Shown here piece after piece: positions 18,001 to 24,000 of a stretch of 64,000 nt of DNA (its first letter is position 1; each line of letters opens with the position of its first letter). Source of the stretch: Escherichia coli (lineage in GTDB: Bacteria; Pseudomonadota; Gammaproteobacteria; Enterobacterales; Enterobacteriaceae). A program made the position numbers. The DNA lies in NCBI RefSeq assembly GCF_003334385.1, contig NZ_QOWN01000001.1. One strand, 5' to 3'.

Positions 18001-21000
18001 GCCTTCATTCAGTAAAAACTGATGCATGGTAATGTCGGCGGCATACGCGCGTTCATCTGCCCGCAGGATCCAGATAATCAGATCCAGTTCCGGTAGCAGC
18101 TGACGATAAAGTGTCCGGTATTCCTGATCATGCTGCGGTGTTTCACCAATGCCGGGCAGATCGACCAGCGTCATTCTGCGTTCACCGAGTTGCAGGGTAA
18201 GACGATGAGCCTGGCGGGTGCAGCCGTTCAGGGGATGCGTGGCGCAGATACGGGACTGAAAAATGGCATTACACAGGCTGCTTTTGCCGGTGCCGGATTT
18301 ACCCATAATGCCAATCACGGGCTCGTAATGAATAACACTGTGGAGATGTTCAAGGATTTTCTGGCGAATTTCTTCAGGAAGAAACGTCAGATATGATTTC
18401 ACTTGTGCGGAGAGGGAAGAATGGCTGAATGACATACCGGTATCCTGTTGATTTCACTGAACCGGATCACACTAATCCGGTTTATCATTCAGGTAATATG
18501 GGCGTGAAAAAATCTGGAGTGACAAAGTTCGGGAGGAGTGATGGCATCACTGTCGATTAATACGCTACGCCGAATGAGCATTTGTAAAAGTCAGGCCTGG
18601 AAAGATACCCAGCGAATACTGAAGCGTAGTGGACTTGTGTACAGAGGGGAACGGTCAGAATCGTTTGATCCTGAGAAACATTTTAATCGTTATACGGTGC
18701 GTTATCTGTACCTGCTTAACATAATTGCGCTTAAGATAAGGTCGGTTAGTAAATTTTCCTGTTGGATCGAGGTGGGACAATGCCATCGTATGACTGGTAA
18801 ACATTTATCTCTTAATGCCCCGCCTTTTATGCTGATTCCGCGTAGTATCCGGAGAAAAGTGGATGGATTCAGACAGTCAAAAGGTGAAGCAACCCCAAAA
18901 TCGGCTCAACCGTTCACGGGCAGTTTGTATGAGGTTTTGAGCAAGGAGAGCGATTCAGCTAAGCTGGACGCATGGATTGCTGAACTGCCTCTGAACTTGC
19001 AGGAGGAGGGAAAGGAAATCTCAGTCATGGGATTTAGTCCACGGGCTGTGGCCCGACCTGTTCTTCGGTCAGCATCCCCGACGTTTGAACTGTTTTATCA
19101 GGAGTATCAATCCCTAAGATTAAAATCTGTTTTTAAATTTGAACCAAGATTTGAACAACTTTTAACAAGACTGAGCTTTAGAAAACAATCAATTCTCAGA
19201 AAACAACAATACAGGGTTAAATCGCAATTACTGGAGAGACTGGGGAATGTGTTGTTTTTCACGTCGCTTTATAACCAGGGATGTTTAGAGGAGTTTATAA
19301 ATGCACTTGTGGAAAAGGAGGACATTTATCTGAAAATGTCCCCTGGGGAGGAAAAGGTGAAAGCACACCAGAAAATGGTTAACTACATTGAAGCGTTCTG
19401 CAACAAAATGACGGAAAAATACCTGATGCCCGCAGCAAGCAGACACTACAAAAAGAAGAAAATCGCTAGGAGCGAAAGTGGTGAAAGTTAATCCAGTCTA
19501 CCGTACAGAATCAGTTGTTCCAGAATAGCCTGCTGTGTTGTTTTCCGCTCTCTGGTCAGTCTGTCCAGAGCGCTTTTTGCGGATGGCGATATCTTTACGT
19601 TGATTTGTACCCGTTTATCTTTTTTTCCATCGATAAACTGTTTTCTGAATGCATTGTGCATCTTGTCGAAAAATCTTTCTTTTGCAGCGAATCCTAGGTG
19701 AAATTCTTTTGGCGTCAGTAAACAGGGTGTGTCTGTGGGGAATAACATTTTTAGTAAAACTACAATGGCAATATATCTTTCGTTATCATTTACAGGATTA
19801 AACCAGGAAAGATATGTGGGTGAGATACGTGCATCAATATATTCCCATGCCCATTTCAGTTGTTCGGTATTCTTTTTAAGCCATTTGGCTTCGTTTCTCT
19901 TTTCGAGTCCCAGCCAGTTTTGATGCATTATTGAGATAATCCGATCTGCTTCCCCATAAAGGATTAACGCATTAATCCATTTCCCTATAACATTCAGTCG
20001 TGTTTCATGACTTGAAGGAATAATTGTCATGGGGTTATCCTTCATAACGATCACCCCCTTCAAGGCAGAATTGAACTCAGATTCATTATTAAGTTTAAGT
20101 TTTTCGGGAACTGTATGAGACATAATTAACCAGAACCAGAATGCTGCAATTTCATTTTTTCTGATCCATTCAGGTATGTGATTATCTGCCAGATTATTAT
20201 CATTCAATAAATGCTCAGTTGTTTTATTTTTCCAGTCATATCTATTCACGTTATAACCGCCTTTATATTGTTTCATCTGATTACGCCTCAATCGTTTTCT
20301 TTTCTGGTGATTTTCACCATCACATGTCAGTTGTATATGCAAGGGAATCAATAAAAATATCACCCTGCAAGCACTTCAAAGCTGATTATGGGGATATTCT
20401 AGAACTATTCACAAAACTATTCCAGACATATCAAGAACTATTTCTTGATCTATTCATAATAAAATAAAACATGCTATCAACTACGGATCATATCCTCCTT
20501 AGGTGTGTCGTTGTACTGTTCGACTGTTCTTGTGGTCAGATTAACAATCTGAAGAGTAAAAGCGACAGTAATCTGTCTGTTATAGTGGCGATAAAAACAC
20601 TGACTGCGCATCCTGTATGTGAAATCCTGTCATGTAGAGCAGTAAGCAATGACAGACATGCATGTTATATGTGAAGGGGCCGGGAGACGACATAATCAGT
20701 ATGGCTGTCATTCTGGTTGTAAAACGCGATCACTTTCCGGGGGTAAAAGATGATATGGAGGTTGACAAACGGTTTGCTTCGGATTGTCTTTTCTGGGGCC
20801 TGAAGTACGGGGGCAGAAAAATAATTCCAGAGTAAATCTGCTCTGTTTTTAGGACAGAAAACTCCATGCTGGCTGTAAAAGTGAAAAATTAACACCTAGT
20901 ATGTATGGAAGTCTGAAGATATTGAGAATGTCGGTATGATACTATATACACATATTTTACTAAGTATTTTTACTAAGCATTTCAGTAAGTGTTATACACG

Positions 21001-24000
21001 TATTTTCTACTAAGTGTTTTACCAGACATACACGTGTTTTCATAAACAGCCCTATAAGTGTTTTCATTAAGCATTGCTGTACACATTGCTTTGTCTGAAA
21101 CACATCCAGTTTAGTAAATCTTTACGTTAGCTAAAATCAGTTTAAAGCTGCTGTAAAACCTTTTTGTTTAAGCAATCAATCTGCTATTCGATTTTACTGA
21201 TGTTGCGTTTAACCTTTTCTGAGTTTTTGTGTTTTTAGTCGTTAACCTGAGACAAGTGTCTTTACGTAAAAACGCAAATCCGACTGAGATAACCTGGTGT
21301 GATTTACGGTGTGCTTGCGACGATTTTGTTAAATGGTTCTATGGATGATTTTGTGACGATGAGATTGATAAGATGATTAACTGGCCCTGGTGTTTTTTCT
21401 CAGTGCAAGGTGATTATCTTTATCATAAGGCTCTTTTCAGAAAAAGCGTGATGATTGGTTCTGGTGTTTTGATTCAGATGAGATTTACGTTATCGATGGT
21501 TAATCGTTTTTATGGTGTGTTGAAAAGTAACGTTTTCAGGATAAGAAAATCGATTCTGATATTGGTGAACTTTGTTCTTGTGGCAGGGTTATCTGTAAAC
21601 AGGTTTTAAGTGCGCTATTCGGCTCTGTGATTGAGTTGTGTGGTTAAGCTGTAGGTTTTGGTGTTGTTGTTGATTTGCATTGCCAGGAAGCGTTCTGGTT
21701 GCGTTTCTGGTGTTTTGTTCGAATGTTCTGTGGATCCTTTTCCCTTCAGGCTTTTCTCGTCGTCCATGTCGTTTTTAAATCCATTCATGCTGTTGTTGCG
21801 TGTTTTGCTGCTGTGTGCAGGATTATCTTTTCGTTCCGGGATGGTTTGTTCCGTTTCAATCACTCTTAATCAGAGAGTTGTAGCATTGCTCAATGCCGGA
21901 TGCCGTAAAGTTTTACCGCGTTGATGAATGATGTGAAGTCAATCCAAATCAACGGAGATCTCTCATCATGAATCAACCAATACACAATGCTTACTGGTTA
22001 TCCCGTTTTGACATCCTTCTCGACAGTGCCCTGGCGCAGCACCGTGCCGTCTCGTTAATCCGAGTGGATTTACGTTTCCCTGAGTATATGCCTGTCACCA
22101 TCATGGATCCCGATCCGGATTCAGCGGTGATTTCTCGTTTTTTTGCATCCCTGAAAGCCAAAATTCAGGCTTACCAGCGGAAAAAAAGATGTGCCAATCA
22201 GCGTGTGCATGCAACCAGCCTGCGTTATTTCTGGTGCCGGGAGTTCGGCAAGATGTATGGCAGGAAACATTATCACGTGATATTACTGCTCAACAAAGAT
22301 ACCTGGTGCTCGATCGGGGATTTCAGCGAACCGTCTTCGCTGGCGACGATGATCCAGGAGGCATGGTGCAGCGCCCTGCATCTTGAGCCCTGGCAAGGCG
22401 ATGGCCTGGTCCATTTTTCCAGGTGGACGCCTTCCCGTAAACCAGCATCGTCTGATGCTCGCCCTTCTTCCGATGACACGCCTTTGTCGGGTGGATGTTC
22501 TGATACCTGGAAGGCTTCAGACAAAAAGCCGGGTGAAGCCGCTGTTCTCTGGATCAAGCGTGGTGATGTGGGAGCGCTGCAGAAAGCCCGGAACAGAGCC
22601 AGTTATCTCGTAAAATATGAAACGAAGTTGCATAACGGTTCCGGGCAACGTAATTATGGTTGCAGTCGTGGGCCGGGACGTCTACTGGATGGCAGGAGAA
22701 GCCTGTAAAACGGCATCCGGAGCCTGAGCTTATGCCACAGTAAGGGCGTCAGCCAACGCCCTTAGCTCGTTTTCTGAAAAAGTCGTCCTGAAGTCATGTA
22801 TCTGCTTCCATTCTCATGTTCATATTTCACCTTACGCTTTCACTATCTGTTATTGGAAGTACCGATTTATTTTGGTGCTGCTCACTTACGGTCATTCACG
22901 GAAGAGGATGGTGGTGAACCGTACGATCCTGGCTGCTGGCGAGGGAAGGTTCAGGACTGGGATGGAGCAGGTTTAGTGGTGGAAGATGAGTCGGAATTTC
23001 TGACTGGTCAGTGAGGTGATGATCTGGTGTAACTCAATCTGCTAGGGTAAACTCTCCTTGCTTTTGCGCACAAGCAGTGGGCCCTGGTTCGCTTATGTCC
23101 TGCATCTACAAGCGAATGACTGACCGGAGACTCCCATATCTGGTCAGTCGCCCATTTTTATTTTCTACCAAATCAGACAAGCATACCGTAATAAATAACG
23201 CCAGTCCCCTGTCGCTCTCGTGTGCTCTACTGGAATGTTGTTGATGGAGATATCCAGATGAAAGAGCTTACATCTTCGACAGGACTATAAATTATGTAGT
23301 AAAGAGTTCCCCGGAGAAAGGGGCTGTTCTGCTGTTCTCATCAAGTCTGGCATGTTCAGGAAATTATTCGAAAATATTAACTGAATGAGCGAAATGTGAT
23401 TTACCTTCTTTTCTGTTCATTGTAAATTTCCTCTTTGCTAACGCAAATCATTATCATTACGCCTTTGGCAAAGGGAAATTTATGAAGAACAAATATATCA
23501 TTGCTCCGGGCATTGCCGTGATGTGTTCTGCAGTTATATCATCAGGTTATGCCAGTTCTGATAAAAAAGAAGATACGCTTGTTGTTACTGCCTCCGGGTT
23601 CACTCAGCAGCTCAGAAATGCCCCGGCCAGTGTCTCAGTCATTACTTCAGAACAACTGCAAAAAAAACCGGTTTCAGATCTGGTCGATGCAGTAAAAGAT
23701 GTTGAAGGGATTAGTATCACTGGTGGGAATGAAAAACCGGATATCAGTATACGTGGTCTAAGTGGCGATTACACGCTGATTCTGGTCGATGGACGACGTC
23801 AGAGCGGTCGGGAATCCAGACCAAACGGCAGCGGCGGTTTTGAAGCCGGATTTATCCCTCCTGTGGAAGCAATTGAACGCATTGAAGTGATCCGTGGCCC
23901 TATGTCTTCCCTGTATGGTTCTGATGCCATCGGAGGGGTCATTAATATCATAACCAAACCAGTTAATAACCAAACATGGGATGGCGTACTTGGACTTGGG

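What the first reader, a model, noticed from the sequence alone, without database searches (positions are those of the whole stretch)
20365..21967. About 1.6 kb without credible coding capacity, containing direct-repeat clusters and a GT-skewed 550-bp block
Gene-dense bacterial DNA rarely has 1.6 kb of non-coding sequence. Here 20,930-21,080 carries repeated ACTAAG and ACACGTRTTTTC motifs, and 21,370-21,920 is extremely G+T-rich on the top strand. The ORFs called in this block translate to low-complexity peptides. Possible explanations are a structured non-coding RNA, a long regulated leader for the downstream Gp2-like gene, an origin-like or iteron region, or a decayed gene.
Basis: seen in the sequence. 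Interest (0 to 1): 0.5.

Follow-up and report, generated by a model that had tools for sequence, protein, structure and literature searches.

The report
Skewed non-coding spacer before island nuclease gene
This is a real, protein-free 1.6 kb stretch in an E. coli pathogenicity island, whose right-hand 1.15 kb accompanies nearly every copy of a DNA-nicking (HUH) enzyme gene; it most likely acts as that gene's control region and long leader, is not a structured RNA or a dead gene, and is of moderate interest.

Summary
Window 20,364-21,967 has no conserved ORF, and PGAP starts the left gene at 20,276, so the gap may begin at 20,277. It carries a 12-13-nt direct-repeat array (20,948-21,090) and the most G+T-skewed 550 bp of the window (21,295-21,856, 68.7% G+T).

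The gap is composite. The left ~450 bp travels with a variable cassette gene. The ~1.15 kb core (20,820-21,967) sits directly upstream of the 'inovirus Gp2 family' gene at 2,506 places in 1,860 E. coli genomes; the gene itself has 2,514 places in 1,879 genomes.

The core diverges at about the neutral rate (13.9% against 11.7% at Gp2 third codon positions), is mosaic, and tolerates indels and a cassette replacement. It keeps its length and skew in every allele.

There is no Rfam match and no conserved RNA structure except a 5'-UTR hairpin covering the SD and AUG.

Best reading: a divergent control region plus a long, C-poor leader, with operator-like repeats. A replication or nicking origin for the HUH enzyme, and functionless spacer, both remain possible. 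A structured ncRNA and a decayed gene are not supported.

The parts
20365..20815 (.). Cassette-linked left part of the gap. It contains the probable promoter region of the leftward 262/291-aa gene, with four AACTATT-type direct repeats at 20,398-20,467.
   Evidence: It is found in only 552 genomes, at >=95% identity in nearly all, and travels with the 291-aa gene. Repeat family D1. Minus-strand promoter-like sites lie at 20,385-20,434. There is no fold signal on either strand.
20828..20850 (+). Hairpin plus T-run (CAGAGTAAATCTGCTCTG TTTTT) at the left boundary of the conserved core block. Cassette junctions cluster here.
   Evidence: Terminator-like site. Homology of many islands starts at window 20,812-20,819 (hits H11-H16). 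The hairpin is altered in some alleles.
20948..21090 (+). Iteron-like array of about 10 degenerate 12-13-nt direct repeats (TAAGYRTTTTAC / ACACRTRTTTTC), all on one strand. Copy number differs between alleles.
   Evidence: TRF period 13, 5.2 copies. Families D3, D4, D7, D20. Whole-unit deletions and insertions of 25, 34, 44 and 52 nt between alleles. The motif is confined to the gap.
21091..21294 (.). A+T-rich linker (about 33% GC) between the repeat array and the skewed tract. The part at 21,100-21,180 is well conserved.
   Evidence: Composition. Alignment. The hairpin 21,226-21,278 is not kept in the second allele.
21295..21856 (+). G+T-skewed tract (68.7% G+T; C/G 0.27-0.4 on the + strand) with dispersed TGGTGT / GTGTTTT motifs.
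   Evidence: The skew is 66.6-69.6% in all 14 alleles that keep the tract intact, though parts differ by 25-30%. GTGTTTT occurs 8 times on + and 0 times on - in the core, against 0.8 expected. Window 21,483-21,781 is replaced by a 1,154-nt cassette carrying a 176-aa ORF in some islands.
21895..21979 (+). Nearly invariant proximal region and 5' UTR. A hairpin (about 21,920-21,979) pairs UUGAUGAAUGAUG with CAUCAUGAAUCAA and so covers the Shine-Dalgarno GGAG and the AUG of the Gp2 gene.
   Evidence: Alignment. Single-sequence fold -39.7 kcal/mol, z -2.8. It is the only alifold window with a substantial consensus structure (-28.4 kcal/mol, z -2.9).
21968..22708 (+). Gene for a stand-alone HUH endonuclease (annotated 'inovirus Gp2 family protein', YagK/YfjJ family). 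The core block always lies directly upstream of it.

Best explanation
The gap is the non-coding control region of a genomic-island backbone. It lies between two divergently oriented core modules. The leftward module is the GTPase / WYL-HTH / DUF932 / antirestriction / RadC / CbtA module. The rightward module is the HUH-nuclease ('Gp2') module, which in intact islands continues into an AlpA-family gene.

Proposed working (inferred, not shown):
1. The one-strand array of 12-13-nt repeats at 20,948-21,090 is a set of operator sites for an island DNA-binding protein.
2. Transcription of the Gp2 gene starts far upstream, so the 560-bp G+T tract is a long untranslated leader. Its RNA is C-poor (C/G about 0.3), which is the opposite of a Rho loading site. 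The antisense RNA would be C-rich, G-poor and almost unstructured, so leftward read-through would be terminated by Rho. The tract would then act as a one-way insulator.
3. The invariant hairpin at the end of the leader hides the SD and AUG and keeps nuclease translation low.

The function rests on composition, length and position rather than on exact sequence. That is why the block evolves at about the neutral rate yet is almost never lost.
For: Position and synteny. The arrangement 'GTPase module <- gap -> Gp2 -> AlpA' recurs in Providencia, Morganellaceae and Brenneria, where Gp2 is only 35-39% identical, with 400-750-nt gaps.

Linkage. The block is at 2,506 places in 1,860 genomes and the gene at 2,514 places in 1,879 genomes. 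Meanwhile genes on both sides are swapped, and cassette junctions fall at the block's left edge.

Composition. The skew is kept at 66.6-69.6% in all alleles that keep the tract intact. The block's composition (C 13%, GC 40%) is unlike four-fold sites of the adjacent gene (C 28%, GC 60%), so it is not a by-product of the local mutation regime.

C/G profile.

Antisense RNA has essentially no consensus structure.

A conserved SD/AUG-occluding hairpin is present.

No sigma-70-like promoter was found in the invariant 110 nt proximal to the gene.

Repeats are strand-specific, and a similar AYAYRTRTTTT cluster occurs upstream of the Providencia homologue (4 in 449 nt).

AlpA-family proteins can act on promoters and long terminator-containing leaders (PMC7969949).
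Against: No transcript, TSS or protein-binding data were found.

Promoter predictions are weak and not conserved.

Terminator-like sites in the tract are not conserved between alleles.

Sequence divergence equals or slightly exceeds third-codon-position divergence.

The centre of the tract can be replaced by a gene cassette, and the region tolerates IS elements.

The skew is absent from the gaps in Morganellaceae and Brenneria.

Motif statistics are post hoc: P about 0.01 after allowing for choice of the best 7-mer.
Confidence: 0.42

Rival explanations
1. The block is the cis-acting DNA substrate of the adjacent HUH nuclease: an origin of rolling-circle replication or of transfer for the excised island. 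The repeat array would serve as iterons that position the enzyme. The strand-skewed tract would be the region that becomes single-stranded and is nicked.
For: The gene product has the HUH fold and invariant catalytic motifs. HUH Rep proteins typically act on origins next to or inside their genes and bind short direct repeats; this is established knowledge for pMV158 RepB, AAV Rep, parvovirus NS1 and Ff gpII. The array is one-strand and variable in copy number. Linkage of block and gene is 1:1. The strand asymmetry is strong.
Against: No conserved hairpin or cruciform was found. No k-mer is shared with the gaps of distant homologues beyond chance. There are no P4-type iterons, DnaA-box cluster or Chi. 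Drift is near-neutral. The central 300 bp is replaceable. No match was found in phage records and only 4 in plasmid records. These islands are not known to replicate.
Confidence: 0.2
2. The block has no sequence-specific function. It is lineage-specific A+T-rich filler, probably coated by H-NS, that expanded upstream of the gene in the Escherichia lineage. It persists because all copies are recent relatives.
For: Divergence is 13.9% against 11.7% at third codon positions. The pattern is mosaic and rich in indels. IS and cassette insertions are tolerated. The 243-aa Gp2 type and its block are confined to Escherichia, with the next relatives at 43% identity and gaps of only 400-750 nt. No conserved structure or ORF is present.
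Against: The block is retained at about 2,500 places while flanking genes turn over, with junctions recurring at its edge. Length and skew are kept in alleles that differ by 25-30% locally. Composition differs from neutral sites next door. Strand-specific motifs are over-represented.
Confidence: 0.28
3. The block encodes a structured non-coding RNA (an sRNA or riboregulator) acting in trans or in cis.
For: It is long, conserved in presence, and has strand-specific composition. A single-sequence fold of the + strand gives z -2.2, on only 20 shuffles.
Against: There is no Rfam match at E<=1. Alifold windows on 12 alleles have z about 0 and small energies. The candidate hairpin 21,226-21,278 is not kept in the other allele. 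Terminator-like sites are not conserved.
Confidence: 0.04
4. The block is the remnant of a decayed protein-coding gene.
For: PGAP sporadically-82 aa ORFs on the minus strand.
Against: These ORFs are intact in only 2-4 of 12 alleles. There is no periodicity and no family match for them. tblastn of the 176-aa cassette protein finds nothing here. A coding strand with 68% A+C or G+T and 13% of one base is unlike coding DNA.
Confidence: 0.04

Closest known systems
Divergent control regions of phage-related chromosomal islands and cryptic prophages (P4-integrase/AlpA-type islands such as E. coli CP4-57, PICI-like elements)
   Same: It lies between oppositely oriented core modules of an island that carries a P4-like backbone gene set: GTPase YfjP/YeeP type, YfjR-like regulator, DUF932, antirestriction, RadC, CbtA/CbeA, YfjJ-family protein and an AlpA-family gene.
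   Different: In K-12 CP4-57 the yfjJ homologue has only a 152-nt upstream gap and a different gene order. Here the region is 1.15-1.7 kb and strongly strand-skewed. No regulator or promoter has been mapped.
Long untranslated leaders controlled by processive antitermination (P. aeruginosa AlpA at alpB / PA0807; lambda Q)
   Same: An AlpA-family gene belongs to the same module in intact islands. A long non-coding stretch precedes the first gene. The AlpA mechanism is documented in PMC7969949.
   Different: No GGGACG-N5-GGTA-like AlpA element or conserved intrinsic terminator was found. This copy of the module in the window has lost its own alpA; the nearest is at 44,272-44,505.
Origins of HUH Rep proteins (Ff phage intergenic region upstream of gene II; pMV158 dso with direct repeats; parvovirus / AAV Rep-binding repeats)
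   Same: It is a non-coding region immediately upstream of an HUH nuclease gene, with a same-strand array of short direct repeats and A+T-rich DNA.
   Different: There is no conserved nick hairpin, no sequence shared with distant family members, near-neutral drift, and no evidence of replication.
H-NS-silenced A+T-rich intergenic regions of horizontally acquired islands
   Same: GC is 38% against 47% for the window. The setting is a horizontally acquired island, and some related islands encode an H-NS paralogue nearby.
   Different: Such regions are not usually strand-skewed. H-NS binding was not tested.

Membership tests
Rfam RNA families (any structured ncRNA or cis-regulatory RNA) | Covariance-model match at or near the gathering score | tested here: not met
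   There is no match at E<=1 in 19,000-23,500 except a chance mir-316 hit outside the gap. The whole-window gathering scan finds only ALIL and tRNA-Sec.
Structured ncRNA (generic) | Consensus secondary structure more stable than column-shuffled alignments, with compensatory changes | tested here: not met
   150-nt alifold windows on 12 alleles, both strands, mostly give z between -2 and +2. Only the invariant 5'-UTR window stands out, and it offers no covariation.
Protein-coding gene or pseudogene | Reading frame kept across relatives, 3-nt periodicity, homologous proteins | tested here: not met
   Indels of 1, 2, 4, 10, 11 and 17 nt.
Iteron-type replication origin (theta or P4-type) | Several near-identical iterons bound by the element's initiator, DnaA boxes, and an A+T-rich unwinding element | tested here: inconclusive
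   A degenerate 12-13-nt array and A+T-rich DNA are present. The P4 octamer TGTTCACC is absent. There is no DnaA-box cluster. Binding is not testable here.
Rolling-circle (HUH Rep) double-strand origin or oriT | A conserved nick sequence, usually in or beside a hairpin, recognised by the adjacent HUH enzyme | tested here: inconclusive
   The enzyme is present with intact motifs. No conserved hairpin or shared k-mer with distant homologues' gaps was found.
HUH endonuclease superfamily (for the adjacent gene) | His-hydrophobic-His metal-binding motif | tested here: met
   H101-Y-H103 is invariant in 21 sequences down to 20% identity.
HUH endonuclease superfamily (for the adjacent gene) | Catalytic tyrosine motif (Y-x-x-K) and the HUH nuclease fold | tested here: met
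Rho-resistant sense leader / Rho-sensitive antisense (rut-like) tract | C>G, unstructured RNA over >=80 nt for a rut site, and the reverse for resistance | tested here: met
   In 78-nt windows across 21,301-21,690, C/G is 0.27-0.76 on the + strand (0.27-0.40 in 8 of 10 windows) and 1.3-3.7 on the - strand. Antisense consensus energies are -1 to -6.5 kcal/mol per 150 nt. Only composition was tested, not termination.
AlpA-dependent antitermination unit | AlpA-binding element in the promoter spacer plus intrinsic terminator(s) in the leader | tested here: not met
   No promoter has been mapped. Terminator-like sites are not conserved between alleles. The E. coli-type AlpA site is unknown, so this is only a weak test.

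The most novel reading that the evidence does not exclude
The block is the working DNA of the island's stand-alone HUH nuclease. Sense transcription through the G-rich, C-poor tract would form a stable R-loop, or the tract would otherwise become single-stranded. That would expose the G+T strand, which the repeat-positioned HUH enzyme then nicks to start rolling-circle replication or mobilisation of an excised pathogenicity island. This would give the large selC/pheV/leuX-type islands of E. coli an autonomous replication or transfer origin that nobody has mapped.
Probability: 0.1. Interest if true: 0.75.

Novelty: new member of a known kind. Interest (0 to 1): 0.36.

Why it matters
About a third of complete E. 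coli genomes (1,860-1,879 of 5,426) carry one to six copies of this block-plus-nuclease unit. It sits in the backbone of islands that carry virulence cargo (ireA, pap, kps in this window) and defence cargo.

The unit lies exactly between two hotspots where cargo is exchanged. How these islands are silenced, induced, replicated or moved is poorly known. A defined cis-region attached to a conserved HUH nuclease is a concrete handle for testing that.

If the region proves to be only a regulatory spacer, it is ordinary. Even then it is a clean example of non-coding DNA conserved in composition and length but not in sequence.

Tried and rejected
- **Rfam:** no hits with permissive or gathering thresholds.
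- **Single-sequence folds:** RNA and DNA folds of sub-regions on both strands gave weak z-scores.
- **Consensus structure:** a sliding alifold with column shuffles found none.
- **Hairpin 21,226-21,278:** not kept in the second allele.
- **Long-range pairing 21,669-21,682 with 21,940-21,953:** the upstream arm varies while the downstream arm is invariant.
- **Sequence motifs:** P4 alpha iterons, Chi and DnaA boxes are absent or not enriched.
- **Helical periodicity of A/T tracts:** none found.
- **k-mers shared with distant homologues' gaps:** at chance level.
- **Cross-species retrieval:** the one genome-contig scan returned only two close relatives.
- **Phage and plasmid collections:** 0 and 4 matches.
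- **PapR sRNA of UTI89:** it lies outside the pap island and is unrelated.
- **Literature for transcripts or named sRNAs at this locus:** searches on CFT073 c5170-c5173, UTI89 coordinates and ExPEC sRNA screens found nothing.
- **Multiple conserved terminators in the leader:** dropped, because other alleles lack them.
- **Derivation from the 176-aa cassette gene:** rejected by tblastn.

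
Full report
**Setting.** The window is an E. coli pathogenicity island, 99.9-100% identical to ATCC 11775 and also present in CFT073. It carries kps, ireA, pgt and pap genes and ends near tRNA-Sec. The finding lies between a leftward hypothetical gene and a rightward gene annotated 'inovirus Gp2 family protein' (21,968-22,708). The leftward gene is an ORF at 19,488-20,363, but PGAP starts it at 20,276.

- No ORF of >=25 aa in the block is intact across 12 other alleles.
- Indels between alleles are mostly not multiples of three.
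- There is no 3-nt periodicity.
- The ORF peptides match no protein family credibly: nothing for those of >=57 aa, and one weak PHROGs hit (E 0.038) for a 46-aa ORF.
- TRF reports a 13-nt repeat (5.2 copies) at 20,955-21,020. Read by eye, the array has about ten degenerate units on one strand over 20,948-21,090, of two related types: TAAGYRTTTTAC and ACACRTRTTTTC.
- The G+T tract is best bounded as 21,295-21,856 (T 0.42, G 0.267, A 0.18, C 0.133). It is the most skewed 550-bp stretch in the 64 kb, about 4.5 sd from the mean.

**The gap is composite.** Megablast of the whole gap hits 1,879 of 5,426 complete E. coli genomes, but only 631 cover >=80% of it. The left ~450 bp (20,365-20,815) occurs in 552 genomes at >=95% identity and travels with the adjacent cassette gene. 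Homology of many other islands begins abruptly at window 20,812-20,819, and in others at about 20,610-20,640, 20,993 or 21,028.

The core block (20,820-21,967) always lies directly upstream of the Gp2 gene, whatever lies further left. Four different hypothetical-gene cassettes occur there, and in one island an IS3 lies between the cassette and the block. Whatever lies to the right also varies: ireA, a restriction endonuclease, a TIR protein, an acyltransferase, IS elements, or YfjI. Counts show near 1:1 linkage. The gene is at 2,514 places in 1,879 genomes, and the block (21,030-21,900) is at 2,506 places in 1,860 genomes. A more sensitive search finds no further, more distant copies in other contexts. 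There are no matches in phage records and four in plasmids.

**How it evolves.** An alignment of 17 copies shows a mosaic. Each 60-100-bp segment exists in two or three allelic forms that are either nearly identical or 20-35% different. Mean pairwise divergence of the block is 13.9%. The adjacent gene shows 11.7% at third codon positions, 7.9% at first and 4.0% at second. At the sequence level the block therefore drifts at roughly the neutral rate, while the gene is under purifying selection.

Length and composition are nevertheless kept. G+T is 66.6-69.6% in every allele that keeps the tract intact. The tract's composition (C 13%, GC 40%) differs sharply from four-fold degenerate sites of the adjacent gene (C 28%, GC 60%). 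The skew is therefore not simply the local mutational equilibrium. In one group of islands, window 21,483-21,781 is replaced by 1,154 nt carrying a 176-aa ORF on the other strand. The centre of the tract is thus dispensable or replaceable.

**RNA structure.** Nothing in Rfam matches. Single-sequence folds give weak z-scores. Sliding RNAalifold windows on 12 alleles, compared with column shuffles, give z about 0 and very small consensus energies. The minus-strand RNA is essentially unstructured, at -1 to -6.5 kcal/mol per 150 nt. The one exception is the nearly invariant last ~100 nt. There a hairpin (about 21,920-21,979) pairs an upstream UUGAUGAAUGAUG with CAUCAUGAAUCAA and buries the GGAG and the AUG. 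Because it is invariant, it offers no covariation test.

**Motifs.** GTGTTTT occurs eight times on the + strand of the core and never on the - strand, against 0.8 expected. After allowing for choosing the best 7-mer, P is about 0.01. The copies vary between alleles (3-9 copies, mostly transition variants). TGGTGT occurs six times in the tract against 0.9 expected. P4 iterons, Chi and DnaA boxes are absent or not enriched. Sigma-70-like and terminator-like matches are few and not conserved between alleles. No promoter-like site lies in the invariant proximal 110 nt.

**Wider comparison.** The 243-aa type is confined to Escherichia; the next relatives are <=43% identical. In Providencia, Morganellaceae and Brenneria the same synteny holds: DUF932 / antirestriction / HTH / GTPase leftward, a gap, then Gp2 followed by an AlpA-family gene and variable defence-like cargo rightward. 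The gap there is 400-750 nt.

Those gaps are A+T-rich. Only the Providencia gap is T/G-rich on the sense strand (61% G+T, C 7%), and it also has a same-strand cluster of AYAYRTRTTTT motifs like the E. coli array. No k-mer is shared among all gaps beyond chance. A second, 188-aa Gp2-type gene in the window (42,806-43,372) is preceded, in an island where no IS interrupts it, by a 1.4-kb T-rich non-coding gap. It is followed by a hypothetical gene and an AlpA-family gene.

**Interpretation.** Shown:
- The DNA is non-coding, composite, and tightly linked to an HUH nuclease gene.
- It is neutral in sequence but conserved in length and skew.
- It has no conserved RNA structure apart from a start-site hairpin.
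- It carries a one-strand repeat array.

Inferred: it is the divergent control region of the island backbone. The array would act as operator sites. The skewed tract would be a long untranslated leader whose C-poor RNA escapes Rho, while antisense C-rich, unstructured RNA would be terminated. The terminal hairpin would limit translation. AlpA-family proteins are documented antiterminators acting from promoters into long leaders (PMC7969949). This makes the model testable, but conserved terminators were not found.

The main rivals are an origin or nick substrate for the HUH enzyme and functionless A+T-rich filler. The origin model is attractive because of the enzyme and the iteron-like array, but it lacks any conserved nick hairpin or motif. 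The filler model is supported by neutral drift and tolerance of insertions, but opposed by universal retention and maintained skew. A structured ncRNA and a decayed gene are effectively excluded.

**Verdict.** The feature is real, widespread and unannotated. It most likely belongs to a known kind, an island regulatory or leader region. It has an unusual compositional constraint and an interesting partner enzyme. No experimental data on it were found in the searchable literature.

Noticed in passing
window 42806-44505 (and L002 9248-11231): A second, 188-aa YagK/YfjJ (Gp2-type) HUH gene (HAHVVFWI motif) is followed by a 238-aa ORF and a 77-aa AlpA-family gene (44,272-44,505). In the window its upstream region is cut by an IS3. 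In strain CB6837 the same gene is preceded by a 1.4-kb T-rich (38-46% T) non-coding gap. Long T-rich non-coding DNA upstream of Gp2-type genes may therefore be a recurrent trait.
   Followed up: partly
window 17551-20363 and 22709-23481; loci L002-L009, L014-L018, L027: The block-plus-Gp2 unit is flanked on both sides by cargo-exchange hotspots. To the left there are at least four unrelated hypothetical-gene cassettes. To the right there are ireA, a restriction endonuclease, a TIR protein, an acyltransferase, YfjI or IS elements. An IS100-flanked SLATT+SMODS pair lies about 3 kb downstream in L003, and an ATP-dependent nuclease about 5.6 kb downstream in the window.
   Followed up: partly
L003 5852-7005 and L017 (equivalent of window 21483-21781): In some islands, 299 bp of the G+T tract is replaced by 1,154 bp carrying a 176-aa ORF on the opposite strand (WP_000778605.1). 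Its only family hit is a weak one to a D5-like transcriptional-regulator PHROG.
   Followed up: partly
window 21968-22708, residues 157-200 of the protein: The Escherichia 243/246-aa Gp2 type carries a low-complexity insertion of about 45 aa (RWTPSRKPASSDARPSSDDTPLSGG...), absent from 189-222-aa relatives. It is predicted to be disordered (pLDDT <50).
   Followed up: no
window 19488-20363: The start of the leftward gene is ambiguous. The longest ORF starts at GTG 20,363 (291 aa), but PGAP annotates 19,488-20,276 (262 aa). The non-coding gap may therefore be 1.69 kb.
   Followed up: no
window 29841-30400: This is a second strongly G>C-skewed stretch, with a G/C ratio of 2.94 over 560 nt, the highest in the window. 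It overlaps a hypothetical protein gene (about 29,958-30,602).
   Followed up: no
window 60028-60122: tRNA-Sec (selC) lies on the minus strand, so at least part of this island complex sits at selC. An ALIL frameshift pseudoknot of an IS3 element lies at 27,205-27,321.
   Followed up: no
L007 7356-7593, L009 6935-7128: Frameshifted ProQ/FinO-family genes lie a few kb downstream of the Gp2-AlpA module in related islands. This hints that RNA-binding proteins once belonged to this backbone.
   Followed up: no
L010 (JAEYLX010000008.1): A contig labelled as a Bacillota MAG carries this E. coli-type Gp2 gene and block at 91% protein identity. It is probably a binning contaminant.
   Followed up: no
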